From contig JBHGNT010000020.1 in the NCBI GenBank assembly GCA_043228905.1, positions 7,936,001 through 8,000,000 on the forward strand: a stretch of 64,000 bases of DNA, in the 5' to 3' direction. The notes under the pieces were generated by a model. That model was given only the letters and a program-made list of their open reading frames with translations, was not told the DNA's origin and did no database searches. Position 1 is the stretch's first letter. Each line of letters starts with the position of its first letter. The stretch comes from Azolla caroliniana. Taxonomy: Eukaryota; Plantae; Polypodiophyta. The position numbers and the translations under genes were made by a program. Below are positions 1,799 through 39,005 of this stretch, one piece after another.

Positions 1799-1824
1799 GG
1801 GTGGAAGCACGCTACGGTGTACCA
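1799..1824 (+). repeat. Left TIR of Sola2-like #1
   Basis: Reverse complement of 21342-21367 with 2 mismatches; preceded by TACA. Confidence 0.9.
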
Positions 1825-2369
1825 GAAAAGTATTGTTTTTTGCCACAAAAATTGTCAGTACTTTCGATACTATTAGTACTGAATAATTCAGAAAAAAAAA
1901 TCAGAGAAAAAGAAAATCGATTTTGGAGAGTGGGGTGACTGTAGTACAAGGAGTGGGGGGAACACGTGAGGAGATGTTCTTTTCATTTTGGGGGCTATTT
2001 TCCCCTCACGTCGATTTTGGCGCTTCCCCTCACATCGTTTTTGGCGCTTCCCCTCATACTCCTCTTCCTCTATCCCTCTGAGCTCTTCATCTCAAACATC
2101 CATGTCACGTTTCTACTTTTCCTCCAATCTAAGAGTTTTGCTAGGGTTTAGGGAGCAAATCTCAGACATCCATGTCAGGTTGGAGCTTTTGAGTTGAGGA
2201 TTTCTGGTTTTTTTAGGGTTTCTGTTTTTGTTAGGGTTTAGGTTGAGGAACATAGACTATTCTGAGGCCTCTTATAACAGCCAATAGTGACTTCTTCGAC
2301 AATGACTTTCTTACTTCCACCGATTGCAGTTTATGTCGTGGTGATTTGGGGCTTTTTCCGTCGAGGCGA

Positions 2370-2830
2370 GGATCCTTCCACTGAATCCAGGCGGCATATC
2401 ACAAAGATTCAAGGCGCCCTCCACCATTGGAGGTTCCTTCCACTAAATCAAGGCGACATATCACAAAGATTCAAGGCGCCCTCCACCATTGGAGGTTCTT
2501 TCCAACAAATTGAGGCGGCATATCACACAGAATCAACGCTCCCGCCACCATTGGAGGTTCCTTCCATCCAATTTTTTATTTTCAGGACTAAAATTTTTCA
2601 TTTCTTCATTTTTCAGTACTAAATTTTTAGATTTTACAATTGTCAAATTTGTACGTCGTGCTTCCACCATTGGAGGTTCCTTCCAGCAAATCAAGGCGAC
2701 ATATCACACTGAATCAACACTCCCGCCACCATTGGAGGTTCCTTCCATCCATTTTTTTATTTTCAAGACTAAAATTTTTCATTTCTTCATTTTTCAGTAC
2801 TAAATTTTTAGATTTTACAATTGTCATATT
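2370..2830 (+). repeat. Subterminal tandem repeats upstream of transposase (~60-bp units with core ccaccattggaggttccttcca, plus a ~180-bp duplication)
   Basis: The core recurs five times, and 2480-2645 is duplicated at about 2660-2826. Confidence 0.8.
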
Positions 2831-2979
2831 TATTCCTTAACTCTAATGTTCGAAACAAATTATTTCTCACTTTGCAGGCCACATTTTAAAACATTTGACT
2901 GTGTTTTCTTAGTGTAGTCTATATAACATTAACTACTCTCACCGGACACTTAATTTTTTTGGATAAATCTAGTGACCAA

Positions 2980-5900
2980 ATGGGGGTCCCCAATGAGAGT
3001 GAGTTGTCAAGTAACTCATGTATATCTGAAAGGACCAAGAGACGGGTGGTTCTTCACATAGTTCGTTATTTGGTAGAAATAATGAAGAGATTTAGTGAAG
3101 AGGATCGTAGGGATATTATATGTAGAGTGTTACACCATCAACGTTTGAATGAAGACATGGAGAGAATAAAATTTAGGGACCAATGTGTTTCAGAAGAGAT
3201 TGTAGAGTCTATGAAGTCATCCCTAGACTTAGTGAAAGGTGTAGAGAGCATAGACAAACTTGCTGCAAAGAGGGTAGCCCTACACATGGTTGTGAACGGT
3301 GCGAGAGAAAAAAAATATAGTGATACTAAAGTTGCCTTAGCCCTGGGTATTCAAAGAAGGAACTTGAGGAAACATCGTCGAAATATACACTCAAGCCAAT
3401 TCAAGTGGCTGGGGTTGGGACGTAGACAACGATGCGATGCCTTATCTCAAGAGATTATTGAGAAAGTGGATTCATTTTGGGCAAAAAATACGCATGTCTC
3501 ACCAAATAAGAAGGACGTGTGTAGACAATGAATAAGTCAGGGTTAGTACCAGATTCACCCTAGACACTTCTTAGAGATGACAGAGGTATTCCATTTTTTT
3601 ATATCAATTCACATTCCATAAATTTTTGTTTTGACCAAGTGAACTGTAGGCTATATATATTGGTTGATGTAGGCTGAATTGTACATGAACTTTAAAGACC
3701 AACATCCAAGCTTGACTGTTGGATTCCGCAAGTTCCAAGGTTTGAAACCATTTTATGTTAGAAAATTAAATGAGAGGAATACATGTTGTTGTGTGTACCA
3801 CGTGAAGATGGACATGTTAAGGCTAGGAGTGAATGCAATGCGTACTGATTCTAAGGGTATACATGGGGAATTATGTGTCTGCACTTGTGAGGTTTGTAGA
3901 CCAAATGGGAAGGATAATAGGTGTAATGCACGAAACATGACTTATGCATCCGTTTCTGAGCTATGGAGGTCTTGTGTTTGTGAAAAAGAAGAATGATGTG
4001 AGTGGCATCGTCGTACATGTCTATTAAGAACATGTAAGGTTTGTCCGCTACCATTATTTTGTAGGCAGGAGCTTGATTTGGGAAACAGTCATATCGTGAA
4101 ATGGAAATATTTAGAGTATGTGACTGAAAATATTGGCAAGGGACTTATAACTAAGCGTATCAAGGAAGTATATAAGGAGACATGTGCTGCTACCCTTGTC
4201 TCAGAATTTAAGAAACAACTTGGGGAGTTCATTCCACATAACTTCCAGAGTTATTGGCAAAATTCACAGTTCAAGGAATGTATTAATAACTTACCAACGG
4301 GTGTCAACGTATCCGTTATTGACTTTGCAGAAGACTATACATTTAAAGTTCAAAATGAGGTTCAATCAATGCATTGGTACAATGATCAATGTACAATACT
4401 TGTACATATTTGCTATTGGAGGCAAGACGGTGAGTTACATAAGAAATCAATATTTTACATTTCAGACAATAAAAAGCATGATACACTATTTGTTCAACAT
4501 TGTTTTAAGCTTCACCATGCAGATTTATTGTCTCTAGGGTTAACCTTTAACCGTCATTGGGTTTGGTCTGATGGTGCTGCCTCGCAGTTTAAGGCGGCAC
4601 GATCGTTCTACTTTATCGCCAGGTAATTTTTAATCCATATGTTTAGTACTTATCATGCAATGTGTAAGGAAGTAATTCTTTTGTTAGTGCATGCATACTA
4701 ATTATGTTTGTAACTATTCGAACACAACACTATTCACATGGATGCATGCATACTAATTTTGTTTGTAACTAAGTTAACTGTTCTTGATTGATCAAATAGT
4801 ATTATCCTGTCACGGGAATCTGTGTTTATTATCTTTTAATCCATGTGAAGTGTTCTCCATAGACACATTGTACTATGTTGTGTGTTGTATCTGTACTAAA
4901 TCAATATTTACATAAGGATGTAAAGTACTCGTCTTGTACTCATAGTATTGTCCATCCTTAAGAGAATTGTACTAATTATCTTTTAATCCATGTGAAGTGT
5001 TCTCCATAGACACATTGTACTATGTTGTATATTGTATTTGTACTAAATTAGTATTTATTGAAGGATGTAAAATACTCGTCTTGTACTCATAGTATTGTCC
5101 GTCCTTAAGAGAATTGTACTAATCATCTTTTAATCCATGTGAAGTGTTCTCCATAGACACATTGTACTATGTTGTGTGTTGTATCTGTACTAAATCAGTA
5201 TTTACTCAACTTGTACTCATAGTATTGACTGTCCTTAAGAGAATTGTACTAATTATCTTTTAATCCATGTTGAGGGTTTTCCATGGACATTGTATTGTAC
5301 TATGTGTTGTATGTGTACTAAAGAAGTAATTATCGAAGGATGTAAAGTACATGTCTTTTACTCATAGTATTGTCCTAGATTGAAGAGTTTGTACTAATTA
5401 TCTATTAATCAATGTTGAGTGTTCTCCATGAACACACTGTATTGTACTTGGTGTTGTATCTATACTAAATCAGTAATAATCGGAAGATGTAAAGTACATG
5501 TCTTGTACTCATAGTATTGTCTTATATTGAAGAGTTCGTACTACTTATCTATTAATCCATGCTGAGTGTTCTCCATGAACACGTTGTATTGTACTATGTG
5601 TTGTATCTATACTAAATGATTGTTTATTGGGGGATGTAAAGTACATGTGTTGTAGTACTAATTATCTTCTAAGGAGGGTTGTGTTCTCCGTGGACACATT
5701 GTACTGTATTATGTATTGTATCTGTACTAAATCAGTATTAATAAATGTAAAGTACTCGTCGTCAGCAACATAGTACTATTTGATATTGAAGAGTTTGTAC
5801 TATTTATTTGTTAATTCATGTAGAGTGCTTTCCATGAATTCATTGTACTATGCTTTATGTTGTATCCATACTAAATTAGTATTAATGGATGCCAAGTTCA

Positions 5901-6330
5901 CATGGTTGACAACATAGTACTATTTATCTTTTAATAAGTGTAGAGTGTTCTCAATGGATACGTTGTGCTATGCTTTATTTTGTATTTGTACTAAATCAGT
6001 ATTAATGGATGTGTACTACTCTCGATTGACAAAATAGTACTAATTTTGTTGGAAACCTAAGATACAAAAGCAGGTATTTCTCCTTATTCAACATTTGTAT
6101 GCAATGGAACTACTTCGGGTCTGGACATGGAAAAGGAGAGCATGATGGCACGGGGGCTGTGATCAAACGTGCCCTTACAAGTGAGCAATTGGATAATAAT
6201 GGTGCTAAGTTACAAAATGCACATGATGTTGTGCAGTGGCTACTAACATGGAAGATGTCAAATGATGGCAAGAACAGATTGTTTGTTGAAGTTCGCGCTG
6301 ATGAGGTTGATAGAACCAAATCATATGGTT
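2980..6330 (+). pseudogene. Spliced Sola2-like DDD transposase (exons ~2980-3585, 3673-4622, 6074-~6330), with stops/frameshifts and a lost C-terminus
   Basis: Motifs VSPNKKD, TCCCVYH, DFAEDY..QNEVQSMHW, KKHD, WSDGAASQFK and WNYFGSGHGKGEHDG..IKR. GT-AG introns at 3586-3672 and 4623-6073 restore the frame. Confidence 0.85.
4690..6050. repeat. Degenerate ~120-150-bp tandem array filling transposase intron 2, rich in GTAC/AGTACT
   Basis: Recurrent block atccatgtgaagtgttctccatagacacattgtactatgttgt...gtactcatagtattgtc. Confidence 0.85.
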
Positions 6331-7711
6331 GTATGCTCATGTTGTTGCTAGTATGCTCAGTCTCAATACAATTAGGCTCCTGTATGTGGGCTACAGCAAT
6401 ACCCCTGGCGAACTCTTGGCTGGTCATAGTCACCTCATTCTTAAGACCATTGTGCTCTCCTTCTTGGGTCAACTCCTCTTGTACGGTGGCTATCACCTCA
6501 TTCTTAAGAGAACCGTGCTCCCCTTCTTGGGTGGTCTTTATTGCCTGGTCCTCATGGGTGATGCTAGTAGGCTCCCCTTCATTAGTAACGATGTTCTTTC
6601 CACAATCCTCATGGGATTCTTTACACACTACAGGTACATTCTCAGTACAATCAGTCTTCTCTTTAGTACTTGCCATATTCTTTCCACACTCCTCATGGGC
6701 TTCTTTAGACAAATTATTGTTTGTACATGCTAACTGCTCTTCAAATATGAATGCTTCGTTTTTCTCACAGTCCTCATGTGTGGAAGATGTGCTTCCAGAG
6801 TCTACCGTCGTGCAAAGGTTAATCCCAGAATCTGACTCTGTACTTGTGCTCCATATAGTTCCCGATTCATTTGATTGCAATTGGGAATCGGACTGCTCTT
6901 GTAAACCTAAATAATGGGATGTCAAAGAATATTAGTATCAACTCACATACTCAAAAGTTTGCAAACATACCAACAACAATGAACGTACAGCCGTAGATAC
7001 CCCATTGCAAGTGGTAGGCTCGGTCATCTTCTCCATAACATCTAAGTGCTCAACAGGGTTGTTATGATCTATAGAATGCACCAAAAGCAACACTATCATA
7101 GGGTTGTTATGATCTAAATCATTGTTTTCAAAAACCGTCTTTTGACGTGTACCTGGGAGTGTGATAAATTTGTCTTCACGATCAAGTTTTGGACTCGTAT
7201 CTCCCTCACCAAAGATCATTTCGTCATCAGCTAGTAACACAAGTACATGGTATTAGACAATGCAATAGGTTGACAACTCTCCGGACAGGTGAGAACATAT
7301 ATAACTCACCATTGCATTCAACTTTGCCTTTCTTGCCCTTTCCATACAACATTCTTGCAACATTCCTCATCTTACTTGGCTCTATTTCTAAAGAAATTAG
7401 GCATTCAACACTTTCTCAAATGAGAATTAAGATATGTTGGCAAAATTTGTGTTACCTGGATTGTTTTGATGTTGACCAGAGCTTGGGGAATTTGTTTGTA
7501 GAAGCATATGTTCCACTGCTCCAATGGCCCTTCTCATACATTCATCTTCATCATAAAACTCATAGGTTATTGGTAATGATGGTCCCTGAACCTTGGAATG
7601 TTCAGCAGATACCGAGGGTTTAGGCATAGGAGCCGGTTGTTCCATTACCTTCCCTGGCGTGGAGTTGCTTGACACTACAACATTCATTGCAAGAAACCAA
7701 AAAACCTTCAA
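6330..7711 (-). pseudogene. Low-complexity (E/K/T/N-rich) 3' exon of the cargo gene, truncated against the transposase
   Basis: Near-contiguous minus-strand ORFs 7427-7711, 6938-7240 and 6110-6925 with internal repeats (HEECGKN, TQEGEH..LKNEV). Confidence 0.5.
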
Positions 7712-7779
7712 GGTTAGTACCGTGATATAAAATATACAATATAGGTCACAAGAGCTGCATTACTAATTCATTAAGCTAC

Positions 7780-8450
7780 ACCTAGTTCCCATATTACACA
7801 ACTAGTACTAATCGTGAACAATGTACTACTCACTTAGTTCCCAATTTACACAAGTAGTACTAATCATGAACAATGTACTACTAACTTAGTCAAATTACAC
7901 AAGGAGTACTAATCATGAACAATGTACCACTCACTTAGTTGCCAAATTACACAAATAGTACTAATCATGAACAATGTACTAATCCTGAACAATATATTAT
8001 TCACTTAGTTCCTAAATTACTGAACTAGTACCAATAAGGAACAGAAGTAGTACTAATAATGAACAATGTACTGCTCACTTAGTTCCCAATTTACACAAGT
8101 AGTACTAATAATGAACAATGTACTGCTCACTTAGTTCCCAATTTACACAAGTAGTACTAATAATGAACAATGCACTACTCACTTAGTTCCCAATTTACAC
8201 AAGTAGTACTAATCATGCACAATGTATTACTCACTTAGTTCCCAAATTACACGAGTACTAATCATGAGCAATGTACTACTCACTTAGTTCCCAATTTACA
8301 AAACTAGTACTAATCATGAGCAATGTACTACTCACTTAGTTCCCAATTTACAGAACTAGTACTAATCATGAACAATGTACTACTCGCTAAGTACTAATCA
8401 ACAATGTACTACAAGTATAGTGTGTACTAACACTAGTACTAGGCACGTTG
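7780..8450. repeat. ~55-bp tandem array with TAGTACTA palindromes (cargo-gene intron)
   Basis: Unit cacttagttcccaatttacacaagtagtactaatcatgaacaatgtactact repeated about 10 times. Confidence 0.9.
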
Positions 8451-9036: not shown

Positions 9037-10395
9037 TCATATAATACAAACAATAGAATAGTAGAGCCACATACCGTACGGGTGTACTTTTAAACCCCAA
9101 GCATAGTACCACTCAACCACAATTGTAGTTTTACAGTCCATACATGTATTCTCTTTCTCAAAATGATACTTAGCACATAGCACATGATATGTGTGCAAGC
9201 ACGGTGTAATCACAACATCCATAGCCTCCAGCTTGAATCCGAGGCCACAAAATATACACCTGGCAGATTGCAAACACAAGTTATAATATATTAGCTAATA
9301 TGATATTTATACCACAAAAGTAGAAATAAATAACTTTTAAAGCCAATACTGTGATATAGCTATACTAGTAATGGTACTTTCCATACCACTTGGGTGCTCA
9401 ATTACAGATGGACACAAAGTTTCAAAACCTTTTTGTTTTAAATTCTGCATCAAGCACGCAAGGTTCTCGGAATGCAACTTTAAAGCTGACAACTTATTAT
9501 CTATTTCGGAATGTGCATTCCTACAAGTATCAAGGTCTCTCATCTATGAACCTAATTGAGTGCCCATATTTTTTAGCTCTTTCTTCAACACCTCACTTTC
9601 TGAATTTTGGATTGTCGATGCAATCCATTCATATGTAGTCTTTAATGAAGAGAATTTCTTTTCTACCTGTATCTCAGCTGATTTAACTGCTTCCAAATCA
9701 ACAAGTAGTGCTTGTAATATTGAGCTCATAGATGCTATGCAACTAGCCATCATCTGTTCATTTTTTTCAGTCATTGTGGCCCGTACCTTTGCAGATTGAA
9801 CTTGGTGGACAGGTGTTGTAGTTGGAATATCCACATGAGAGGTTCCCGATGACTTCAAGCCAGTGTTGGTACTAGAGGACCCTTTATAATGTTCTGACCG
9901 GTGCCAATTAAAATCTTCCCAATCTACGTTGATGCCACCCTGAACTTCACATGCAAATGCACGTGCAAAAACAGTACCCACCTCATTGTTATAGATTTGA
10001 TTTGTATCATAAACATGTTCATATCTCGTCTTCAATAAGTTCACATATTCCCTCTTCAATCCACTTATGTGGAATCCTCGCCTCGTATCGAGATGTGCTG
10101 ACCCCCAAGTTTTTATCAACCACTCTCTTAGCTCAGGATAAACTTCAGGTCGTGCTCAAAGGAAATAACTCCATCCGAGAGGTGTGTCTCGACTGATGGA
10201 GTGGTACATCTTCTTTCTTTGTGTTGATGAATTCATCACCCTTTCTTTTGTGGGTGTCTTCTTGCTTTCTTTGATAGGTGTCCTTTTTCCTTCCTTCACT
10301 GGTGTCTTCACTGTCTCTTTCATCAATGTCTTCTTTATGGGTGTCCTTCTCGTCATTGTCCTAGTCATCACTATTCTCGTTGAATGAGTATGCAT
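9037..10395 (-). pseudogene. Cargo gene of Sola2-like #1: basic repeats, unknown domain (NNE..FARAFA.E..G..VDW), coiled coil, RING-H2 finger
   Basis: ORFs 10156-10395, 9544-10119, 9337-9543 and 9037-9279. RING reads CIFC..PCLHTYHVLC..CMDC. A homologue lies in element #2. Confidence 0.7.
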
Positions 10396-11251: not shown

Positions 11252-11638
11252 TGTTGTCTGTCTAGCCGGACTAGCCTCAACACAGGTGTCTATCCGACAC
11301 TTCTCCGAAGGGGTGGTAAGGATTGGATGCTAGGTTACACGCGTAAGATGATTACAATTAAGCACAGACGGTAAACAATACGAGATACAAATAAACACGC
11401 AATAATTACTATTGTATTACTTTCCGTCCCCTTTACAAATCATCGGATCCTTTTATAGGCATCCGGCAAGGTTACAATCGGTGCGCTTAGGCAACCGACA
11501 TCCGAATCCGTCCGGATCCGGATCGGTACAACTGTACCGGATCCGTCCCTCCGAATAATAATTCTACTATTATTTACTTCCTATTATCCGATCCGATTCC
11601 ACCTTCCCACTTATCCTTGCTCTTCTGATCGGCCAACA
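11252..11638 (-). repeat. 3' LTR of Gypsy A
   Basis: tgttg...caaca; direct repeat of 20498-20884. Confidence 0.95.
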
Positions 11639-11688
11639 CATGGCACGCCCGTGGGAAAGTGCCTTGCACTTCGAATCCACTCCCGGCC

Positions 11689-14600
11689 TCAGTCTTCCTC
11701 CAAAATATCGAGCACACTCTGCTCGATGGTGTCAAGTGGTGCTCCTTCCTCCTGTTCCTATTCCTTGCCTGCCTGGTCTCCGACCTCCGGTTGGGTGGGC
11801 TGTTCCGTAAAAATTTGCTGCTCCGGCTCTGCTTGATTCTGTGGTGCCGGTGCTTCCTCACCGCTTCGTCCGGGTTCTTCCTGTTCTCCCTCCGTTCCTG
11901 GCTCTGTTCTGTTACCGGTGTCGCTTTCTCCGGTCTCGACTGGTCGACTTGATATGCCTCCTTCCTCTGCTCTGGTGTCTTCCGGTCTCAGCTCTTCTTC
12001 TTCTTCGGCATCGGTCTGCTCCTGCTCTTCTTCAAGTTCGTCTTCGGGTATTCCTCGTCGGGGTTGTTCGGTGTCGGTTGGTTCATCTTCAGCCGGTCGC
12101 GTTCCCTCACCAATAGTGGTTGGTGTCGTTCTTCCCTTAGCTTCCTGTCGTAACCGGTCCTGCTCGTATCTCTCCAACTCCAATTGAGTTGCGAGCTGCC
12201 CGTCATCCAACCTCTCTACCAACCCTCGGATTTCTTTGAGATGTTCTTCCGCTAAAGTGTAGAAATCTTCCGACAATTCTTCCTGAATGGCGATGATACT
12301 TTCCTCATCCATCTTGTAGAACTTGTCACCGGTCTTCCTCCGATTCTCGGCATCCGCTCGGAGTGTCTGCAGCTCGGCTGCCTGTTGTGACCACTCCTTC
12401 CATAGCTTTTCCGTACTTTCGTTGATGCTTGCCTGAGCTCGGGTACTCCATCCTGACATGATGAGCTTGATCCGGTCAACCCCTGCCTTAGCATGCGCAT
12501 AAGCTTCCTGTTTTTCCTTCCTTGCCTGTTTTATAATGTCGGCCATTATCTGAGCATGGGCCTCGTAATCCGCTTTCTGCTTTTCATAGGTACTTTGCAG
12601 TTTGCTGATCGTGAAGGTCGATTTTTCCTTTTCTTCATTCCTGATCTTGGTCAGGTCCAGCTTTTCCCGCCTTAGCGCCTCTAATTCCTTCCTTCTCTCC
12701 GTTGCTTGGGCTATTTCCGCCGACAATGCTTCCTTGTTGGCACTGACCTCATCCATTGCCTTAGCCAGGTCTAATCGGGTCTCTTTGAGCTGTTCTTTCA
12801 GCTTCTCTATTTGCCGGTCGTAGTCTGCTGCCCGTTTTTTGTTGTCCGACTCGGCCTGCTTGTGATCTCGGTAGAGACGGTCGAAGTCCTCCGTCTTCTG
12901 CTTCAGGCGTCGGTTTGCCTGAGCTCTTAACCGATCGTCCCGGTCCTTCTGTTGTCGGAGTTCTTCCTGCAGTCGTTCTATCTCTTGCTCGGCATGTCGA
13001 CGCAGTCGGTCCTTCTCCTTTTGCAGCTTCTCTTTTTCTTCTTGCAGTCGGTCATTAGCGGCTCGACCTTTCCGGAGGCCTTCTTCCATTTTTCGTCTGT
13101 CATCCTCCACCGCTTTCCGCTGCTCCCTTTCTCTTTCCCTTAATGCCTCCTGAGCTTTTAACTCCTCTCGTAAGGTTTCTATTATTTTTTCGGTCTCAGG
13201 GCCGGTTTGCAAGGCTACCGGTTCTGGTTCTGGTTCTGGTTGCTTCCTTGTTGTCCCGACCGGCTCGATGACAACTTGTGCTTGTTGAATTCCTTCCCTT
13301 GCCTGCAACAGCTCCCCTTGCATTTCCTCGATCTGTGTTCGGAGCGCGACCAACTCCTGAGTTGTTGTATGTGTCAGCTGTTGCCTACACGTTTCTTCTT
13401 TTTCTAACTGGTCCGCTACTCCCGATAACTGCTCCGAAAGCCATCTCAGCCATTGTGGCTTTGTTCTTCCTGTGTCGGGGTGGCCTTGCTCACTTAACTC
13501 GGGCTGTTTTTCCAGCCTCTTCTCTGGCTCCGGCTCCGGCGCTTGTTCCTTCTTCTTCTCTGGGATGACCGGTTCTCTGAAGTTCGGCCCAACCGGTGTC
13601 AGTGCTGCTTCCCTCGGTACGGGTTCCGGTGCTGTTTCCGCCTCGGCTACTGGAGATGGTCCTTGTGCCCTCTGCTGAGTTCTGTCCACTGGTGGAGCCG
13701 GTCCTTTCGCCCGTTTCTCCCGACCTTGTCTTGCTGGGAGTCTTACCAGTGGTTCGGATGAGTCTTCTGTTTCAGCTTCCTCCTTCGGTGCGGTTACTAG
13801 ACGGACCTTTTGTATAAAGACCTCTGGTTCCGGTTCCGGCCGTCGCAGCGTTATATGGATTGGTTTGCGCGCTACCGGTTCCTCCTCGGCCGATTTCCCT
13901 TTGCCTTTACCTGCCGGTTTTGCCTTTGTTGCCGATTCCTGTTGCTGTCGGGATGATCCTTCCCCCTGTTGTTCTGCTTCTTGCTGGGTCCATCCGGGGG
14001 TGTGTTTCTCCAAGATCTGTCGGCGCTTTGTGACCTTTTTCGGCGTCGTCTCCTGCCGACCTCTTTTCTTTTGTGTGATGGGGAGCACCGGTGGGACTAA
14101 CACTGTTAGCCATTGTGCTATCCCGGCCCATGGCTTTTTTCCTTCCACAAGATTTTTGATGGCCTCCTTCAATCCTTCGGTTATGAAATGGAGCCAGTCT
14201 ATTTGTAAGCCTTTGTACGCTGCTATTAAGAACGCTGCCCGGTACTTGGCTATGGCCGGGGGACGGGGATCCACGAATCCGTATTCCATCATGGCGCGGG
14301 CCACTTCTCCGAACAGCAGGTTCTCTCCGCCCTGCGTTCGATACGCCTTGCTGTTGATAGAGTACTCCCCGAAATATTCGAACAGGATTTCACTTGAAGG
14401 GTTTTCGATTGTTTGAAGTCCTCCTGCTTTTATCCCCGTGAGCGCCTGCACCGCTCCTTCTGTGACTTCTGATATATCGATCGATGCAGCCGCCTGCTCT
14501 GGTTCTGCGTGTGGTGGAGCGTCGGCGATCCGCAGCAATCCTTTTAACCCGTTCTCCCTCATCCATTGGCGTGCCTCTTCCGACAGTACCATTGTTTCGA

Positions 14601-14793: not shown

Positions 14794-15006
14794 AATTAGT
14801 ATGTCCTTTCTTGTTTGCCGCGTGTGAGTGCCCACGTTCCATGCTTTAAATAGCAAGTACGCGCACGTCCTTCTTTAATGCATGGCGCCTCTTCGTTGCA
14901 TGGTGGTGCTCCCACCTCTTGTGATCTCCCCATCATTACTATGATTCGCGTCGATTTTGCCCACGTCTTCTTTTTTTTTTTCTTTTTTTTTTTTGTTTGG
15001 ACCACG

Positions 15007-19965: not shown

Positions 19966-20001
19966 CCATCCCCCGATTGTCCTCTGCACTTTGCAGGAAT
20001 C

Positions 20002-20011: not shown

Positions 20012-20017
20012 AAATAG

Positions 20018-27856: not shown

Positions 27857-28158
27857 ACGCCGCTCTCACTCACTCTCTGTCTCACACGCTCACGCGCTAC
27901 TTTTGTTCTACACACAACACTATTTTGCCCTAGATGTATATATACTGATACATCGTATAGCCCATTTACAATTGTAGCCACTGCCACATATCATAATTAT
28001 TATTATTGCTATAGTAATAAACAATCGACTCTCTGTTGTCAACTCTTTGACTGTCAGCTACTTCCAAACAGTTGGTTCCTTCGACTCTTCCACTATCGGC
28101 TACTTCTGAACAGTCGGTTCCTCCCACTGGAGGGACATATCCCAAACAATCTCCCCCT

Positions 28159-31100
28159 TCACTCTTGTGGGAGGGAGTCAGTCAATCCTATCTTCCGTCG
28201 ACAAATTCTAAGTTTGTCCGTAGGTAGGTTCTTCGTGAGCATGTCGGATCCATTTTCGTTAGTATGGATCTTCACCAGGGAAAACTCTTCTTCTTCGACT
28301 CTCTCCCGAAACCACTGATACCTCCTTTGTATGTGCTTGGTTCGGGAGTGGTAAGCAGCATTCTTGGCTAGATGTATGGCACTCTAGCTGTCATAGTGAA
28401 GCAAGAACTCCCTCTACTTCATCCCTAGCTCGTTGAGAAAGTTTCTCATCCAGATCAGCTCTTTGTCGGCCTCTACCACTGCCATATACTCTGCCTCTGT
28501 AGTCGACAAGGCTACAGACTTCTGCAGTCGTGATTGCCACGACACTGCTCCCCCTGCATAGGTCATCACGTACCCTGATGTCGATCGGCTCGAGTCTACA
28601 TCTCCCGATATGTCCGAATCGGTTAAACCTTCCAACATAGGTTTTCTGACACCATACCTAAGGCACACCCTCGAGGTGCCTTTCAATTACCTGAGTATCA
28701 ACTTCACCGTTGCCAAGTGTTCTCTTCCTGGATTACTTATATATCGGCTTACTACTCCCACATCAAATGCTATGTCTGGTCTCATACAGACCATAACATA
28801 CATTAGACTGCCAACGGCCGAGGCATATGGTACCTTCCTCATCTCGGCCTTCTCCTTCTCCCCTTTCGGGCACTGCTTCGCATTGAACCTGCAATTTGTC
28901 GGCAACACTGAGCCGACTGGCTTTGCGTCTGACATGTTGAATCTTTCTAGGATCTTCGTCAGATACTTTTGTTGTGACAACCATAGCACCTTTTGAGTTC
29001 TATCTCAAACTATGTGCATTCCTAAGATCTATTTAGCCGGTCCAAGGTCTTTCATGGCAAACGACCTGCCTAGAGCTTTCTTCAAGCTTCCAATCTTCCT
29101 TGTGTCTTGACCAACTATCAACATGTCATCAACATATAACAAGAGAATCAAGAAGTCTCCTTCTTCATACCTTTTGACGAACACACGGTGATCAGCCTGT
29201 GTTTTCTGGATCTGGTATTCCATCATGAGCGACTCGAACTTCTTGTACCATTGGCGTGGAGCTTGTTTCAGACCGTACTAGTTTTTCTTCAGTCGACACA
29301 CCAAGTTCTCTTTCCCTTTCTCCTCAAAGCCTTCGGGTTGCTGCATGTAGATTTCTTCTTCTAGCTCCCCCTGTAAGAATGTGGTTTTGACGTCCAACTG
29401 TTCGATCTCCAGGTCCATACTAGCCACTATGCTCAGAACAGTTCGAATGGATGTCATCTTCACGACTGGTGCGAATATTTCGTCGAAGTCAACGCCCTTT
29501 TTCTGTTGAAAACCCTTCACCACTATGCGGGCTTTATACCTAGGCTCACTGTCGACTTCTCTAGTCTTCACCTTGTAGACCCACTTATTCCTGAGTGCTC
29601 TCTTACCTTTCGGCAGCTCTACTAGGTCGTAGGTGTAATTCTCGTGCAAGGATTCCATCTCATCTTGCATCGTGCTCAGCCATTTCTCTCTGTGCTCGTC
29701 GGCAAGGGCTTCTTCATAGTAGTCTGGTTCACCTTCATCAATCAAGAGGATGTATTGACTGGCATATGTTGTCAGTGCTTTCCTTTCTTTGAGTGGGTAT
29801 CTTCTTCCACTCGTTGTTGGCCCTCTTTCGGATGTCTTTGCCAACTCTTCTCTCCGCTCGGGTTCCTACACGTCAATCGGCATCTCCAGGTTGGACGACT
29901 CCAAGTCATACTCTTCAATTGACCTTGGCAGCTTTGCCAACTCAGACTCATAGTCAGTTGGTCTCTTTGAGTCGACCGACTCGGTTTTGGTTGTGCCAAC
30001 TGGCCGTCTCCGAACAGCTCACGATGTTGATTCGCTTGGCCTTAGTCGGGGTTGACTGGGGAGTCGTATCCGACTTCTGTTGCTTCCAGTCTTCAATCGT
30101 CTTATCTTCAAGAAAGACTACATCCCGACTTCTCACTAGCCTCTTGTCGACCAAGTCCCATAGCCTATAGCCGAACTCATCTTCCAAGTATCCCATGAAT
30201 ATGCATGCTTTCGACTTACCGTCGAGCTTTGACCTCTGATCCTTCGGTACATGCATATACACCAAACATCCAAACATCCTCAGGTGTTGGTAGGAGACAT
30301 CCTTCCCTGTCCACACTCTTTGTGGAACATCACCCTTTAATGGTACTAAGGGAGACCTGTTGATCAGATAAACAACTGTGTACATCGCCTCAACCCAATA
30401 GGATTTCAACAGTTTCACATGAGAGAGCATGCTCCTTACCCTCTCCATGATCGTTTGATTCATCCTCTCTACAAGCCCGTTCAACATTGGGGTCTTTGGC
30501 ACTGTGTATTCGATCCGAATACCTTGACACTTGCAATACTCCTCAAACTCCCTTCTATATTCGCCACCATTGTCGGTTTGGACAGCCTTCAACTTCCGAC
30601 TCGACTCTCGTTTAGCTCTAGCCTAGAACTCCTTGAAAACCGACAGTACTTGATCCTTCAACTTGAGTACGAAGGCGCATGTCTTATGACTATAGTCGAC
30701 AATAAACATCACAAAGTATTGTCCACCTTGATGCGATGGAGCATCTACATAGCACACATCCATGTGTACCAGTTCCAGTGGCACTTCTCTTCTTCTTGGT
30801 GGTCTTGTGTGGAAAGCTACTCTGTTTTTCTTTCCAACTAAGCAGTCAACGCACTTCTCCAGGTGCACTCTCTTGACTTCTGGTAGAAGCTTTTGGTCGG
30901 CTAGCAGGTGCATTCCTTTCTCACTCATGTGGCGTAGCCTCTTATGTCATATCTCTCCTGCCGAATCAACTACCACATTTACTTCCGATTTGCACAGTCG
31001 GGCATGCATCATAGATAATGTGCCTTCTTTCTATGCTCGGGCAACTATAAGATTCCCTCGGTAGAACTTCCACTTGCCATTCCGAAAACTACCACTATAG

Positions 31101-32233
31101 CCTTCGTCATCTAACCTTCTAGTCGATATCAGATTCAATCTAATATCAAGGACATGTCGAACATCCTTCAGAGTCAATTGACACCCTGTCGACGTCGTCA
31201 AGCAGACACTTCCGACTCTGGTTATCTTGCACTCTCAACTATCACCCATCTTCACGTAACCATGATCTCCGGCTATGTAAGTCAAGAAATACTCTCTCGA
31301 CGGAGTTATGTGGAACGATGCGCCAGAACCAATCACCCAAGTGCATTCTTCACTTGCAAGATTTGCACTTGTGTGTTCGCAGATGAACAACAGTTCTTCA
31401 TTGCTCGTAGCAATGGCAGAAGTGTTCTTCTCATCAGGAATCTTCCTGGATTCGACATTGTTTCCGACACCCTTGTCTTTTCTCATGTGTCGGGAGTCCT
31501 TTTGGAAGTGTCCAGGTTTACCACTGTAAAAGCACACTAGCTTACCTCTGGACTTTGATCTAGCTTGGGACTTTTCTCTCCATGGTGGACTTCTTTGCCG
31601 GTTCCTTCCTCTATCCGAATGTTGTGTTACATTCGACTCCGACTGACCGAGCACTCCCTTGTCCTTCCTTGTTGCCTCCTCATTTAGGATGCTTGTCTTC
31701 ACCATTTGTAGAGACAAGTTCTCTTCTTGACAAGAGGTGCTGAGAGTAACCATTAGGTTCTCCCAACTATCCGGTAGTGTGCACATCAGCAAAATGGCCT
31801 GCACCGCATCATCCAGGGGGAACTTGGTTGCAGCAAGTTGGTTTACATACCCCATGAACATGTTGATGTGTTCGACAATGCTCTCACCATCTCTATATTT
31901 CAGCCTTATGATTTTTCTCATCAGCGAGGTTTTATTGAGCGCGTTCTTCCTCTCATACAGACCCGACAACTTCTGCCACATCTCATGGGCATGTGTGTCG
32001 TTCGCAACATGTTGAAGGACACTTACGTCGACGCACTGTCGGATGGTGGCCATTGCTTTTCTGTTTAGAAGTTTCCAATCCGACTCCAATACCCCCCTGG
32101 GTATATCTGCTCTGTCGACTGGCTCGTACAGGTCTTTCACGATGAGAAGGTCTTCCATCTTTATCTTCTAGTCTGCATAGTTTTGTGAGTTTAGAACTAT
32201 CATACCTGGGAAACCGCTCACACCTCCTTCCAT
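28159..32233 (-). pseudogene. gag-pol of Copia 2
   Basis: LPDSWEN gag, WVIGSGASFH protease, TDNGGEY integrase, LLYVDD RT and ALSTTEAEY RNase H; many stops. Confidence 0.92.
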
Positions 32234-33006
32234 GCTTGCACCTCAAGCTCTGATACCAGTTTGTTGAGAAATCATTCGGTCAAATCTCAATAAGCGAATT
32301 ATGCTGAAATACGAATCATAGATATGCCAAAAAATAGGACAACAATGGTGCATAGAGATTTAACGTGGAAACCCTAAAATGGGAGAAAACCATGGGAACA
32401 GAGCTTCACTATGTATAGTGGATATACAACATAGAATGTTACAACACTCCTTCGAGTGTACCAGCCATGCAGGGCTCTTGGCGTCTATTGTTATGCACAC
32501 AACTATGACGCCGCTCTCACTCACTCTCTATCTCACACGCTCACGCGCTACTTTTGTTCTACACACTACACTATTTTGCCCTAGATGTATATATATTGAT
32601 ACATCGTATAGCCCATTTACAATTGTAGCCACTGCCACATATCATAATTATTATTATTGCTATAATAATAAACAATCGACTCTCTGTTGTCGACTCTTCG
32701 ATTGTCAACTACTTCCGAACAGTCAGTTCCTCCCATTGGAGGGACATATCCCCAACAATTTTAACTTGTACTTGGTTCACTTGAGTAAATCTGTATTTCA
32801 GAAAGAAGAAGCCTAAACAATATTATTAAACTGTATATTAGAAAGAAGATTGTATATAAAAATGACACACGATTTTGTTGAGAAAGAAGCACAAAAAGTA
32901 GACTATATATCAAATTAAAAACTCCCAAACAGGTCCATTAAACTATTTATTTGCAATACATGTGCTTTGTTTGTTTTACAAGAAAACTGGTAATTGCTAC
33001 TTGTAG

Positions 33007-36000
33007 CTACAAATTCCATGGCATATTGTTGTAAATACATTCATACACATTAGCACTAACTGTGTATAAACTTGAGCAGCTATTGTATTGCAACATTGGG
33101 ACATTGATGCACCTGACCAAATGAGAGTACATGTACGCCACTGGTTTGTCTTCTAATAGCCTATACACATAATCGTGATCATCTAGTCTTGCATAAAAAA
33201 TACTTTTGATGTAGAATGTCCCAGTAGATACAACATTTCCCCAAGCATCTAATAAATTCTGTGTTGCACACTATTTACTAACCGTGCACTTCAATATATA
33301 GAAATCAACACCCTTTGAATTGCCTTCTTCTGCATTTACAACGAAATTATCCCCAACATTTAAGACATCACTCAGAGTATCTCCACGTCCTTGATATGTG
33401 AAGTCAGCATTCTTTTCTGTTTCTCCATCAACTACTTCCTTATCGTTCAATGTATGATACTCCCAATTCTCAATATATATGTTTTGTTTAAACAATACCT
33501 CCAATTTCCCTGCACACAATGGATGCAAATACAAGTTAATTCTCTAACCGTAATACAATGACCATCCAACCTAGAATAACCGCGAACAGCATGGAGAGAT
33601 CGCAATTCGGGATATCCTTGGCACTCCTAGGTCTTCTCCCTATTTACTTTATCTATCTTCACATCCCAAAATTCACATTTCATATCTCGGACCTATGAGG
33701 AATAAACACTAGTTGCACTCGTTGACATATTAGCTCTTAAAAATTCAACTACATGTGCTTCACAATTCATTTGCACACCATCTGCCTTTAGTTGTTCATG
33801 GGTAAGTGCCCGCTTTATAACAGCACTTGCACCATCATGTTCACCTTTACCATGGCCAGACCCAAAAAAATTCCATCTCATCTCCAAACCTGTTATAGCA
33901 GGATACCTCCCCACAAAATAAAATGGATGTCTAGCCTTGAATTGTGATGCAGCTCCATCAGACCAGACCTAATGTTGAGTAAGCTCCAAACGTTTAGCTA
34001 ATAACCATTGCCAATGTAAGTTAAAACAATGTTGGACGAACAAGGTATCATGCTTCTTATCATCAGAAATAAACAAATGAATTACTTTTTATCATCACCT
34101 GAAACTCGAAAATATGTTATGTGCACAAAAATGGTTACCTGCGTTGAACACCAATGCATAGATTGAATTTCATTCTACTGCTTGAAAGTATAATTCTTTG
34201 CGAAATCTACTACTGAAACTACTACATCATTTGGAAAATCAGATATGAAAGTCTTAAACTGATGGGCTTGCCATGAATAAATGAAGTTGTGTTTAATGAA
34301 CTTTCCTAGAGATACTACAAATAGAGACGCCAAATCCCTTGGTTTAGGCGACTTCCTAACTACATCCTTTCTTTTACACACCTTTCCTTCGAAATTGGTG
34401 TCAGTTGATTCAAATAACTTGACAGAGATTAATATTTCACAACTCAATTCATTTGGACACCACCTAAATCTATTAGGGCCACAATCTTAACATAAACCCA
34501 TTACACATTTATGACTGTGGAAGATGGCCTCAGTTTCTCTCGGACACAATACTGAATCTAAAAGATAACTCATGGAAGAGATAACATGCTCAAATGATTT
34601 ATAGTGCTCATGCGCGCTCGATCGACAAATTGGGCACTCACAAGTGCAAACTACATTTGTTAGGGAGCCGATATGGTGACGTAGTAGATTAACAGAGTCC
34701 TTGAGAAAACCCATTTGTACATGGTAAATGCAATAGCATGTGTATCGATCCGTCAAGCGTCTCACAAAGTGTGTCTTAAGAGACTCGAATGTTCGTGGTT
34801 GAACTTTGATATTTGGATGCATTCGCTTGAACCTAATAAATAAATCGACCTGCATAATAAAATGGACATACTAATTAGCTCTATGGCCAAGTGGTAACTA
34901 TTTAGCTACTACCATAGTTTAGTACAATAGCTAATTAGCTAAGTGGTAGCTAATTAGCTACTACCATAGTTTAGTACAATAGTTAATTAGGTAAGTTGTA
35001 GCTAATTAGCTACTACCATAGTTTAGCATAGTAGCTAATTAGCTATGTGGTAGCTAATTAGCAACTACCATAGTTTAGTACAATAGCTAATTAGCTAAGT
35101 GGTAGCTAATTAGCTACTAACATACTTTAGTTGAGTAGCTAATTAGCTACTATCATACTTTAGTTGAGTGGCTAATTAGCTACTACCATAGTTTAATACA
35201 ATAGCTAATTAGCTAAGTGGTAGCTAATTAGCGACTACCATAGTTTAGTACAATAGCTAATTAGCTACCACATAGCTAATTAGCTACCACATAGCTAATT
35301 AGCTACAACCATACTTTAGCTGAGTAGCTAATTAGCTAAGTGGAAGCTAAGTAGCTACTACCACAGTTTAGTACAATAGCTAATTAGCTAAGTGGTAGCT
35401 AATTAGCTTCTACCATAGTTTAGTATAGTAGCTAATTAGTTAAGTGGTAGCTAATTAGCTACTACCATACTTTCGTTATAGTGGTTAATTAGCTAGTACC
35501 ATACTTTCGTTATAGTGGTTAATTAGCTAGTACCATACTTTAGTTGAGTCGTTAATTAGCTAACTGGTAGCTAATTAGCTACTACCATACTTTAGCTAAG
35601 TAGTTAATTAGCTACTACCATACTTTAGCTAAGTAGCTAATTAGCTACTACCATACTTTAGCTAAGTAGCTAATTAGCTACTATCATACTTTAGCTGAGT
35701 AGCTAATTAGCTAAGTGGTAGCTAGTTAGCTACTACTATACTATAGTTGAGTAGCTAATTAGCTAAGTGGTAGCTAATTAGCTACTACCATAGTTTAATA
35801 CAGTAGCTAATTAGCTACTACCATAGTTTAATACAGTAGCTAATTAGCTAAATGGTAGCTAATTAGCTACTACCATAGTTTAGTACAATAGCTATTCCAG
35901 TAGGGGATTGGCAATTCTAGTAGCTAATTAGCTATAGTCATAAGCAGCTAATTAGCTACTCTGGTAGCTAATTATCTATTGTTATAGGCAGCTAATTAGC

Positions 36001-36994
36001 TATTGTGGTAGCTAAGTAGCTATGAATGGTAGCTAATTAACTATTCTAGTATCTAAATAGCTATGTTCGATATTCTTAGGGAGCTAATTAGCTATTACTG
36101 GTAGCTAGTTAGCTATGGTCATATTTTGAGGTTGGTAATTAGCTATTCGGATATGGTCATATTCAGAGGTAGCTAATAAGCTAACTAACTAAGGTCAAAA
36201 GTCAAAACAAATGTTGAGATAAATGTAAATACCTGAGGTACATCAAGAAGATGAATGGGATGCTCATCGTATTGACTCCTTCCAACACGCTTCCTGCATA
36301 AATCCTTCTTATTGGGTGAAACCCTACTCTCATTAGTCCAAAATATTGTGATTATATCCTTGATTTCTAATGTTATGGGTGTGATTGGCTTACATCTTGT
36401 TGTTAGCTTTAGCAGACTAGTTCCTTCACCCAAGGAAACTATACGGTTCAATGTATTGTACACACTTTTTCTACTAACACCAATTACCTTAGATAGCACA
36501 CTGATGTTAATATAGTCAACATCACTATTAAGAAACATCATTAGACTAGACCTTTTTAAGACAAGATCATCTTCTAAACTGCTCATGGATACGAAACTAT
36601 TACGGAGATTATTTACTAGTACAGATGTTATGTTTGCATTAAGACCATCACAATCAACTGACTCCTTTATCGATGGATCATTTAATATTCCATAAAGTAC
36701 TACCTTCTTTTCTTCATTGCTAATGTGCTTGGTTTGAACATTGAAATAGTCTACAACCTTTCTCTTTATGATAGTAGTCTCATTACTTCCATTCTCAGTG
36801 ATATTTAGACCTATATCACAACCAACACTATCTTTACCTTTAGTGAGTGTGGCTTTCGTATCCTTCAACAATTGACGATGTTTTCTTTTTCTTTCTTCCC
36901 AATACTTTTGTATCTATTGTTGTGTCCTGATAACGTTATCCCTATCTTGATGATCATTGAGGGGTAATTCTGAACACCCTCCTTCCCCTTCCAT
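33007..36994 (-). pseudogene. Spliced Sola2-like transposase #2 (intron 34850-36232), decayed
   Basis: RVSPNKKD, TCYCIYH, VDFAKNY, SDGAASQFK, WNFFGSGHGKGEHDGA..IKR and a C-terminal VGDNFVV..DFYILKC domain. Confidence 0.85.
34870..36190. repeat. Palindromic TAGCTAATTAGCTA array filling transposase intron 1
   Basis: Same motif and units as 24030-25075. Confidence 0.95.
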
Positions 36995-37139
36995 TTGGCT
37001 CAACGAGTTTAAACCCTAATTTTCCCGAAAAAAGACACGTATCAAAGATGGATATGGGCAACAACAATACACAAAAATATTCCGCAATACACACAATTAT
37101 ACACAACAATACACAAGATAATCAATAGACAGAATAGTT

Positions 37140-38075
37140 ATTCAAATCCAAGACCGAACTGTGGCGGTAATCCAGGGCCGAATAGTGGTGGCAACTGAGT
37201 GTAGAATGACGGTAGTGGAGGAGTGAACTCCATTTGATCGAACAGTTTTGGCAATCCAGGACCGAACAAGTGCGGCAATTGAGTGTAGAATGATGGCAAT
37301 GGAGGAGTGAATTCTGTCGAATCAAACAGTGGCAAATGATGCTTGGTACGCACAGTGACGACAACTGAGAGTAGAATGGCAACAATGGAGAAGGAGTGAC
37401 CTCCTTCGGATCTAAAAGTGGTAGCAATACACCACCGAACAGTAGCTGCAACTAAGTGTAGAATGATGACAATGGATGAGTGAACTCCGTCAAATCGAAA
37501 AGTGGTAGCAATCCAAGACCGAACAGTAGCGGCAACTAAGTGTAGAATGATGGCAATGGAGGAGTGAACTCCGTCAAATCGAACAGTGGCAGATGATGCT
37601 TGGAATGCACAGTGATGACAACTGAGAGTACAATGGCGGTAGTGGAGAATGAGTGAACTCCCTCAGATCGAAAAGTGGCAGCAATACACAACCGAACAGT
37701 AGCGGCAACTAAGTGTAGAATGATGGCAATGGAGGAGTGAACTCTGTCAGATCTAACTGTGGCAGATGATGCTTGGAACGCATAGTGATGGCAACTGAGA
37801 GTAGAATGGTGGCAGTGGAGAAGGAGTTAACTCCGTCGGATCGAAAAGTGGCAGCAATATACGACCTTCACAGTAGCGGCAACTGAGTGTAGAGTGGCAG
37901 CAATGGAGGAGTGAACTTGGCAGATGATGCTTGGACTGAATAGTGGCGGCAACTGAGTGTAGAATGGCAACAATGGAGGAGTGAACTCCGTCGGATCAAA
38001 CAATGCCAGATGATACTTGGACCACACCATGCCAGTAACTGAGTGTAGAATGGCGGCAATGGAGTGAACTCAATA
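37140..38075. repeat. Subterminal tandem repeats (~70-80-bp units, core caactgagtgtagaatg..gcaatggaggagtgaactcc)
   Basis: About 12 recurrences upstream of transposase #2. Confidence 0.85.
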
Positions 38076-39005
38076 GGGTTTAGCAACAGTGGTAGTAATC
38101 TAAGCCAGAATACTCAACTAAAGATGGCCCACGTGATATGGCAAAGGATCATGCATAATGACCTAGGAATTGAGTATATAATTTATGGTGCACGTATCAA
38201 TTTATGTTGCACGTTTATGGTGCTCATTTATATAATTAAAACTCTCTACTATTTTCAATGGTAGCTTTTTGCATAGCTAATTTATGAATGATAGCTTTTT
38301 GCAAAAATGATTATTTATCAATGGTAGCTTTTTGCATAGCTAATTAGCTATGTCAAGGACATAGCTAATTGTTTACACTTGCATGCTTTCACCCTGTAGT
38401 TGTTCTCCACTTCCTAATACATACATCTTCTTAAGTATTTCTATTTTTGATGGCGAATCAAGCAAGAGTGGTTGTCAAACCCCCTTGAGCCTCACGCTCA
38501 TTTCAATTCAGAAATTGTTGAGCGAGCAAGCTCAACCGGATCCGAATCGGGGAGACGGATCGGAGAGACGCATTCAAGCGGGGACCGGAAGCCTTGTAGT
38601 AGCCTAGACTACTAGGTAATCATTGTCTCGTAGTTAGTGTCAGTCGCACGTAGGAATATTGAATTACTTGTCAGTACTTCTGTCAGTCCTTTATGGACTT
38701 GTATAAATAGTGTTGTGTAGCACGTTGTATGTACAGTGAGTTTTTCAGAGTGATATTTTTCAATTGAGTTTATGTTCTGCTCTCTCTCTCTCTCTCTCTC
38801 TCCCGCGTATACTCTCTGTGTATTAAGCTTCTCCATTAAACCTTCATCTTATTCTATGTTGCTATCTAGCTGAGCCGGTTCTGTCTAACGCTTCCGCACG
38901 TTTACATTCACATGGTATCAGAGCGAGAGGGTTGAGAACCTCTGCTTCCGACACTTGCTTTCCTAGACAACCCTAGAACCTAGTAACAACAGACAAAGAG
39001 AAGAT

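What the first reader, a model, noticed from the sequence alone, without database searches (positions are those of the whole stretch)
1799..38394. Large Sola2-like DNA transposons with a fixed two-gene architecture: spliced transposase plus convergent RING-finger cargo gene
Seen: two diverged elements (1799-21367 and ~22177-38394) share related GGG..CCC termini, a subterminal tandem array before the transposase, the same first transposase intron position (..HFLEMTE| vs ..HLLDVPQ|), and a convergent gene of unknown domain, coiled coil and RING. Known: the DFAE/SDG..QFK/HGKG..DG transposase, 4-bp TSD and GRG..CYC termini fit Sola2, which to my knowledge was described mostly from animals with long TIRs and no conserved cargo. 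Inference: this is a plant Sola2 lineage with short (26-bp) TIRs and a vertically kept putative E3 ubiquitin ligase accessory gene, analogous to accessory genes of MULE/CACTA elements and possibly anti-silencing.
Basis: partly seen in the sequence, partly recalled or inferred. Interest (0 to 1): 0.8.

Follow-up and report, generated by a model that had tools for sequence, protein, structure and literature searches.

The report
Sola transposons with conserved RING gene
These are two broken copies of a Sola-type cut-and-paste transposon, likely from a moss, liverwort or fern, whose relatives mostly carry a second, conserved RING-finger gene facing the transposase, and that gene likely helps the element escape host silencing.

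Summary
Largely confirmed. Element 1 (1799-21367) is a complete insertion: 26-bp TIRs, 4-bp TSD, same 5' end in other insertions. Element 2 has only its right TIR. Nested LTR retrotransposons inflate both; net sizes are about 10 kb. Both copies are defective. The transposase matches published Sola2 motifs; spliced contigs skip both introns. The plant Sola lineage itself (26-bp GGGT TIRs, 4-bp TSD, 10-11 kb) is already catalogued in a 2025 supplement. The second gene (unknown N-domain, coiled coil, RING-H2) was not found in print. Its RING lies convergent and downstream in 13 of 21 related loci with long flanks, tracks transposase divergence (Mantel rho 0.72) and is constrained like the transposase (dN/dS 0.23 vs 0.24). 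Its N-domain folds confidently without a PDB match. Several families, both window elements included, amplify their own short DNA motif as intron arrays, recalling VANDAL/VANC. Best reading: a VANC-like, self-targeted anti-silencing accessory gene (0.4); main rival: a MURB-like transposase cofactor (0.3). E3 activity and DNA binding are untested.

The parts
1795..1798 (.). Element 1 left target-site duplication (TACA); right copy at 21368-21371
   Evidence: empty-site test
1799..1824 (+). Element 1 5' TIR, 26 bp, begins GGGT
   Evidence: same boundary in L053 and L046
2368..2831 (+). Element 1 tandem array upstream of the transposase (62- and 181-bp units)
2980..3585 (+). Element 1 transposase exon 1 (two premature stops)
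   Evidence: 94-97% identical frames in L044, L053
3586..3672 (+). Element 1 transposase intron 1, 87 nt, GT..AG, phase 0
   Evidence: skipped by one contig of run X2; sites checked
3673..4622 (+). Element 1 transposase exon 2: Cys-rich region, first (DFAE) and second (SDG) catalytic Asp; one premature stop
4623..6073 (+). Element 1 transposase intron 2 with 147-bp tandem array rich in GTACTAA
   Evidence: an X2 contig continues from 4625 into sequence matching 6077 onward
6074..6333 (+). Element 1 transposase exon 3 with third catalytic Asp (HGKGEHDG), cut short by an internal deletion
   Evidence: L050, L070 continue about 210 aa
6335..7714 (-). Probable low-complexity tail exons of the element 1 accessory gene (exon structure inferred, no family match)
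7779..8392 (-). 52-bp tandem array, GTACTAA-rich, in an intron of the element 1 accessory gene
9080..9259 (-). Element 1 accessory gene RING-H2 exon
   Evidence: an X3 contig joins 9262 to 9390
9390..10392 (-). Element 1 accessory gene exon: basic leader, unknown N-domain, coiled coil (start approximate; two stops)
11252..20884 (-). Nested Ty3 LTR retrotransposon (TSD AAACA) in the 5' part of the element 1 accessory gene; not part of the Sola unit
21342..21367 (-). Element 1 3' TIR (24/26 match)
22175..22676 (+). Truncated left end of element 2 (no TIR); probable first small exon and intron of its accessory gene
22677..24020 (+). Element 2 accessory gene: N-domain (about 22704-23111), coiled-coil exons, RING-H2 (about 23820-23981); degenerate
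24022..25080 (+). AGCTAAT-rich 52-bp array in an intron of the element 2 accessory gene
25096..26804 (+). Element 2 accessory tail exons and NIF/FCP1-like domain (Pfam match about 26316-26636); same gene or adjacent gene
26914..32757 (-). Nested Copia LTR retrotransposon (TSD ATTTT) between the two converging genes; not part of the Sola unit
33007..34849 (-). Element 2 transposase exon 2 (whole catalytic core and C-terminus; stops and frameshifts)
   Evidence: open relative P0007, cluster of 34
34850..36232 (-). Element 2 transposase intron 1 with AGCTAAT-rich array
36233..36994 (-). Element 2 transposase exon 1 (weak helix-turn-helix match, below Pfam cutoff)
37169..37917 (-). Element 2 tandem array upstream of the transposase (84-87-bp units)
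38369..38394 (-). Element 2 5' TIR-like end, begins GGGT, flanked by TACA

Best explanation
These are defective copies of a Sola-superfamily cut-and-paste transposon of about 10-12.5 kb that carries a spliced transposase and a converging, co-inherited accessory gene (unknown N-domain, coiled coil, RING-H2), and that gene likely protects its own element family from host silencing. Shown: structure, mobility as a unit, transposase splicing in relatives, co-divergence and purifying selection of the RING, and family-specific motif arrays in introns of both genes. Inferred: the N-domain would bind the family's own short motif (GTACTAA in element 1, AGCTAAT in element 2); the coiled coil would oligomerise it along the arrays; the RING would recruit ubiquitin transfer to remove or block silencing chromatin or its readers locally; the NIF-like domain of one subclade would add a contact with phosphorylated transcription machinery. 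The logic would be that of VANDAL/VANC, reached with an unrelated protein.
For: Convergent downstream RING in 13 of 21 locus clusters with at least 6.7 kb of downstream sequence, 0 of 21 on the transposase strand, 1 of 17 upstream (leave-one-cluster-out HMM). N-domain found just 5' of the RING in 11 of those 13 and nowhere else among 22 clusters tested. L037 is a complete 12.5-kb element (TIR 17/20, TSD ATAA) containing both. Transposase versus RING distance, Mantel rho 0.715, p 0.0001, 16 elements. dN/dS 0.23 for RING and 0.24 for transposase over 5 non-overlapping pairs. N-domain family of 105 representatives at 50% identity, modelled at pLDDT 91. Element 1's two intron arrays share no BLAST similarity, yet hold 13 and 23 GTACTAA against 0.7 and 1.2 expected; element 2's hold 69 and 50 AGCTAAT against 3.0 and 1.8. 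Other families have other top motifs, partly shared within clades. VANC targets are short motifs amplified as tandem repeats in introns and terminal non-coding regions (PMC5735166 passages).
Against: No binding, ubiquitination or methylation data exist here. The same motifs also lie near the element ends (2-4 copies against 0.1-0.2 expected), which fits transposase binding sites equally well. The N-domain is not strongly basic (median net charge +2, range -6 to +7, n=39). Most RINGs lack the helix Trp and the Pro of the last Cys pair typical of active RING E3s (alignment; the typical pattern is my own knowledge), and the RING part of the full model is low confidence. Motif enrichment is weak (z under 7) in the older long-flank loci. 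8 of 21 long-flank loci show no RING. The coiled-coil region of element 1 against one X1 contig gave 8 synonymous and 20 nonsynonymous codons, close to neutral, though both copies are disabled and the list of differences was partial.
Confidence: 0.4

Rival explanations
1. The accessory protein is a transposition cofactor like maize MURB or the Harbinger partner protein. It binds the transposase and helps integration, targeting or transposase turnover; the motif arrays are transposase binding sites that expanded by slippage.
For: Tight co-divergence is expected of binding partners. The motifs occur near both ends. Transposase exon 1 has a weak helix-turn-helix match (E 0.003). MURA binds MURB through its variable N-terminus (PMC12973397 passages). 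That mudrA and mudrB are convergent is my own recall.
Against: The large arrays lie 2-8 kb inside the element, not at the ends. An intronless sister clade with open transposase frames shows no RING in the short flanks held (L023, 4.9 kb), so the chemistry may not need the gene.
Confidence: 0.3
2. The accessory protein is a trans-acting E3 ligase that degrades a host silencing or DNA-damage factor without binding DNA. The N-domain is the substrate-binding module and the arrays have another cause.
For: Substrate domain plus coiled coil plus RING is a common E3 layout (own knowledge). The N-domain is near neutral in charge. The RING ligands are kept under purifying selection.
Against: It does not explain why two unrelated arrays in one element converge on one motif. 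PMC12973397 states that broad anti-silencing appears rare in plants. The RING lacks typical E2-contact residues.
Confidence: 0.18
3. The gene is a captured host fragment carried passively, as in Pack-type elements, with no role for the transposon.
For: Every copy examined at DNA level is degenerate; the RING is missing in 8 of 21 loci; the one close comparison of the coiled coil looked near neutral.
Against: Same position, orientation and domain order across transposases only 30-50% identical; dN/dS 0.23; open frames kept in clusters of 31 and 37 members about 60% identical to each other; RING-negative loci are scattered on the tree, not a clade.
Confidence: 0.05

Closest known systems
Plant Sola elements in PMC12973397 Table S2 (Ceratodon purpureus x2, Rhytidiadelphus loreus, Cibotium barometz)
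   Same: TIRs of 26-32 bp, GGGTG termini in TIR or representative sequence, 4-bp TSD, 9.9-11.2 kb. Very probably the same lineage.
   Different: No second gene is described: the main text has 0 occurrences of RING or ubiquitin and Sola appears only in those 4 rows. Rows are labelled Sola1, Sola2 or both. Sequences were cut at 400 letters, so their cargo could not be checked.
Sola2 (animal Repbase families; amoebozoan DFa and PPa elements)
   Same: Catalytic motifs DF(A/S)ENY, SDG..QY/FK and HGK..(C/H)DG in the same order; 4-bp TSD. Amoebozoan members have 12-21 bp TIRs and a second gene.
   Different: The known second gene is Fanzor1, with 3' parts that differ between families. Here one accessory family is kept across the clade. 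Animal-type relatives are only 23-25% identical (P0036, P0037).
VANDAL MULEs with VANC anti-silencing proteins
   Same: Accessory gene inside a DNA transposon; family-specific short motif amplified as tandem repeats in introns and terminal regions.
   Different: Different transposase superfamily. No sequence link to VANC was tested or seen. RING and NIF-like domains are present here. Binding and demethylation are shown for VANC, not here.
MuDR (mudrA/mudrB)
   Same: Transposase plus an accessory gene needed for transposition; convergent layout (recalled).
   Different: No family match links MURB to this gene (Pfam scans); MULE TSDs are 7-12 bp with long TIRs.

Membership tests
Sola superfamily | 4-bp target-site duplication | tested here: met
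   TACA for element 1, ATAA for L037; definition in PMC10741241 passage
Sola superfamily | DDD transposase with three catalytic aspartates | tested here: met
   D222, D305 and D346 of the first row are invariant in 31 homologs and present in both elements
Sola superfamily | TIRs within the reported 11-1124 bp range; size mostly 2-9 kb, some over 15 kb | tested here: met
   26 bp; about 10-12.5 kb net (range)
Sola2 subgroup | Sola2 motif set around the catalytic residues | tested here: met
   Compared by eye with the Sola2 alignment in PMC3627910 additional file 10, part 1 of 2; P0037 carries the animal-type motifs and was found at E 2.7e-5
Sola2 subgroup | Groups with Sola2 rather than Sola1 or Sola3 in a tree with named references | tested here: inconclusive
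   Trees used only two unnamed Sola2-like outgroups; no Sola1 or Sola3 references were held; PMC12973397 labels similar elements Sola1, Sola2 or both
Sola2 subgroup | GRG..CYC termini (recalled, not read in any paper here) | tested here: met
   GGG..CCC in element 1 and L037; GGG at 9 mapped or candidate 5' ends
RING-H2 E3 ubiquitin ligase | C3H2C3 zinc-ligand spacing | tested here: met
   All eight ligand positions in element 1; pattern kept across 16 aligned RINGs apart from decay; weak Pfam RING hits below cutoff
RING-H2 E3 ubiquitin ligase | E2-docking residues (helix Trp, Pro in last Cys pair) | tested here: inconclusive
   Mostly absent; some active RINGs also lack them (own knowledge)
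RING-H2 E3 ubiquitin ligase | Ubiquitin transfer activity | not testable with these tools
   Needs an in vitro assay
NIF/FCP1/SCP phosphatase | PF03031 domain | tested here: met
   Element 2 32.4 bits, P0096 44.4, P0139 25.1; cutoff 21.8
NIF/FCP1/SCP phosphatase | DxDx(T/V) catalytic motif (recalled) | tested here: not met
   DLNG(V/L)L in six relatives and ELDKVL in element 2; likely catalytically altered or dead
VANC-type anti-silencing system (works-like test) | [quoted passage not shown] | tested here: met
VANC-type anti-silencing system (works-like test) | Accessory protein binds that motif and removes silencing from cognate copies | not testable with these tools
   Needs binding and methylome assays
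VANC protein family (membership) | Sequence or fold homology to VANC | not tested
   No VANC reference was held; PDB searches gave no match, which does not exclude it

The most novel reading that the evidence does not exclude
A second, independently evolved sequence-specific anti-silencing system: Sola elements of mosses, liverworts and ferns encode a DNA-binding domain of undescribed fold that reads a family-specific motif amplified in the element's own introns and delivers a RING ubiquitin ligase (plus, in one subclade, a CTD-phosphatase-like domain) to erase silencing, kept with the transposase since early land-plant divergence.
Probability: 0.25. Interest if true: 0.88.

Novelty: new variant of a known kind. 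Interest (0 to 1): 0.66.

Why it matters
Few transposon counter-defences are known in plants, and those cited in the papers read are from flowering plants. A conserved, selected RING gene in Sola elements gives a defined candidate in non-seed plants, where Ceratodon has recently active Sola copies. It predicts cognate protein-motif pairs that can be tested directly. The N-domain is a family of over 100 clusters with no Pfam or PDB match in these searches. Fern gene models such as MCO5555562.1 appear to be this cargo rather than host RING genes.

Tried and rejected
No whole genome is held, so copy number and a TIR survey were not possible. The original Sola paper was not held. A 'longer' homolog search with the element 2 N-domain found nothing among 261 candidates; the full HMMER search later found 105. 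Viral contigs held no relative of transposase or cargo. ESM Atlas searches gave only weak, uninformative hits. Fold searches of the N-domain model found no match: Foldseek PDB and BFVD none at E 0.001 or better, VIA-align best Z 2.5; the full-length model hit only generic coiled coils; this does not prove a new fold. The complex prediction of transposase core with N-domain returned no verdict; alignments were not used and transposase exon 1 was absent. No run is on record as RNA ('no RNA holder listed'); X1, X2 and X4 are guessed RNA, X3 probably DNA. My idea that the N-domain is related to the extra ORF of the window's Ty3 elements was rejected (hhalign prob 0.3-2%). The first profile comparison of the two cargo families was circular and was redone. 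A global alignment of the two N-domains misaligned. TIR plus TSD pairs were found in only 1 of 21 long loci. No NIF hit in the long-flank loci. Earlier-findings look-ups returned nothing. Nine literature searches listed no paper describing a Sola RING cargo; Repbase entries and subscription papers were not searchable.
Full report
Observation. Element 1 is a real, complete insertion. Its TIRs (1799-1824, 21342-21367) match at 24 of 26 and TACA lies on both sides. Removing it and one TSD copy gives a Copia pol frame that runs across the site. L053 and L046 begin to align at exactly 1799 with other flanks. Element 2 has a related end at 38394 but no partner end in the window; its left side meets a truncated Copia gag near 22174. 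A Ty3 (11252-20884) and a Copia (26914-32757), each with a 5-bp TSD, account for the large sizes; net lengths are about 9.9 and 10.4 kb. Both copies are defective: they carry premature stops, and element 1 has lost about 210 transposase residues after 6333 compared with L050 and L070.

Transposase. Exon 2 found 37 homologs at E 0.001 or better among 446 candidates; named ones are from Klebsormidium, Ceratodon and Calypogeia. The host is therefore likely a non-seed plant; I did not identify it further. Three aspartates are invariant and their motifs match the Sola2 alignment in PMC3627910 additional file 10 (part 1 of 2 read). Trees put all plant-type sequences apart from two animal-type Sola2-like proteins, but held no Sola1 or Sola3 reference, so the subgroup rests on motifs. 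One contig of run X2 skips 3586-3672, and another runs from the end of exon 2 into exon 3. These runs are guessed, not recorded, as RNA. Intron 1 is at the same codon in both elements; 19 of 27 loci scored have a gap there (16 with GT), and 8 form an intronless sister clade.

Accessory gene. The element 2 N-domain has 105 representatives at 50% identity. In 60 of them scanned with Pfam, no family was shared over the N-domain; RING (weak), NIF and fused retroelement or host pieces appeared in a few. Seven of ten looked up are Adiantum nelumboides hypothetical proteins or share that naming (P0139, P0126, P0096, P0098, P0057, P0075 are named so; four are unnamed). The element 1 version forms its own family of 6 hits and is homologous by profile comparison (prob 96%; reversed control 20%). 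AlphaFold2 models the N-domain at pLDDT 91, followed by long helices and a low-confidence RING. No solved structure matched. Element 2 also has a NIF/FCP1-like frame, convergent to the transposase as in L003 and L005; Adiantum models join N-domain, coiled coil, RING and NIF in one protein. The usual catalytic motif is altered.

Is the architecture fixed? A metagenome scan kept the best 80 of 372 confirmed stretches, from 40 of 64 parts of the collection. They form 53 clusters. I tested 28 with a leave-one-cluster-out RING profile; 21 have at least 6.7 kb downstream. In 13 of these 21 a RING lies 3.5-8.3 kb downstream on the opposite strand, in 0 of 21 on the same strand, and in 1 of 17 upstream; short L012 is also positive. 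Profile seeds came partly from downstream hits in other clusters. The N-domain sits just 5' of the RING in 11 of the 13. L037 is a full 12.5-kb element with TIR, TSD, transposase, N-domain and RING. The 8 negatives are scattered among positives on the tree, and four show other repeats downstream, so decay and nesting are the likely cause. These clusters are distinct element families but may come from few host species. The intronless sister clade has too little flank to judge; L023 shows a cullin-like fragment (name recalled) and no RING in 4.9 kb.

Co-inheritance and selection. Across 16 elements, RING distance follows transposase distance (Mantel rho 0.715, p 0.0001). Over 5 non-overlapping pairs, dN/dS is 0.23 for the RING and 0.24 for the transposase; synonymous sites are near saturation and the RING sample is small (about 145 synonymous sites). 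Against this, element 1's coiled-coil region versus one disabled X1 contig looked near neutral (8 synonymous, 20 nonsynonymous; partial list).

Motif arrays. Introns of both genes hold tandem arrays. In element 1 the two arrays have different units and no BLAST similarity, yet both are about 19-fold enriched in GTACTAA; element 2's are 23- to 28-fold enriched in AGCTAAT; each motif also occurs near the element ends. Other families have other top motifs: ATGCTA in L003, AGGTGA in L005, AGGACT among the top motifs in L045, L065 and L077, AGTCCA in L012 and L059; enrichment is weak in the old copies. VANDAL elements amplify VANC target motifs in the same way (PMC5735166, passages).

Mechanism. 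Shown: a mobile two-gene unit with a selected accessory gene and self-specific motif arrays. Inferred, most likely (0.4): the accessory protein binds those arrays and uses its RING to relieve silencing of its own family. Main rival (0.3): a MURB-like transposase cofactor, the motifs being transposase sites; MURA-MURB binding maps to the transposase N-terminus (PMC12973397, passages), a region I could not test. A non-DNA-binding E3 against a host factor gets 0.18 and passive cargo 0.05. The N-domain's modest charge and the RING's missing E2-contact residues weigh against the favoured model.

Novelty. Sola elements are known in plants: passages in PMC10741241, PMC6890710, PMC6786969 and bioRxiv 10.64898/2026.07.23.736688. 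Table S2 of PMC12973397 lists four moss and fern Sola clusters with 26-32 bp TIRs, 4-bp TSDs and 9.9-11.2 kb, very probably this lineage. Short-TIR Sola2 elements with Fanzor1 cargo are described (PMC3627910, passages and two supplements). PMC5751038, PMC4455052, PMC12859917 and bioRxiv 10.1101/2021.09.26.461848 (passages) add nothing on cargo. Nine searches showed no description of the RING gene, its N-domain, the NIF-like addition or the motif arrays. The original Sola paper and Repbase entries could not be read and may bear on this. Verdict: a new variant of a known kind; interest 0.66.

Noticed in passing
window 4622 to 6991: One X1 contig joins the exon 2 donor to a GT..AG acceptor at 6991, skipping the third catalytic Asp and running antisense into the accessory gene's tail; single contig, 27 letters on the far side.
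   Followed up: partly
window 11758-14874 (-) and 54301-56937 (+): Both Ty3 elements carry a large extra coiled-coil-rich ORF after pol on the same strand (1038 aa in the first); not related to the Sola accessory N-domain.
   Followed up: partly
window 20007-20646: The nested Ty3 has four near-identical 160-bp units at its 5' LTR and one at the 3' LTR.
   Followed up: no
window 1795-1798 and 38395-38398: Both elements have TACA at their 5' flank; other mapped 5' flanks vary and are AT-rich, so a strict target is unlikely.
   Followed up: partly
P0016 (Klebsormidium nitens model): The transposase homolog is fused to an N-terminal leucine-rich-repeat region; possibly a gene-model fusion or a different cargo.
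   Followed up: no
L023 5703-6023; L023, L027, L038, L039, L041, L056, L057, L075: Sister clade lacking intron 1; L023 has other introns and a cullin-like fragment (name recalled) 3 kb downstream, so it may be compact, cargo-free or domesticated.
   Followed up: partly
window Sola exons versus Ty3 interiors: CG observed/expected is about 0.5-0.6 in the Sola genes but about 1.05 in the Ty3 elements.
   Followed up: no
window 38470-64000: Further nested LTR retrotransposons (LTR pairs 38533/43817 and 47700/57182, a Copia at 59.9-64 kb) make up the rest of the window.
   Followed up: no
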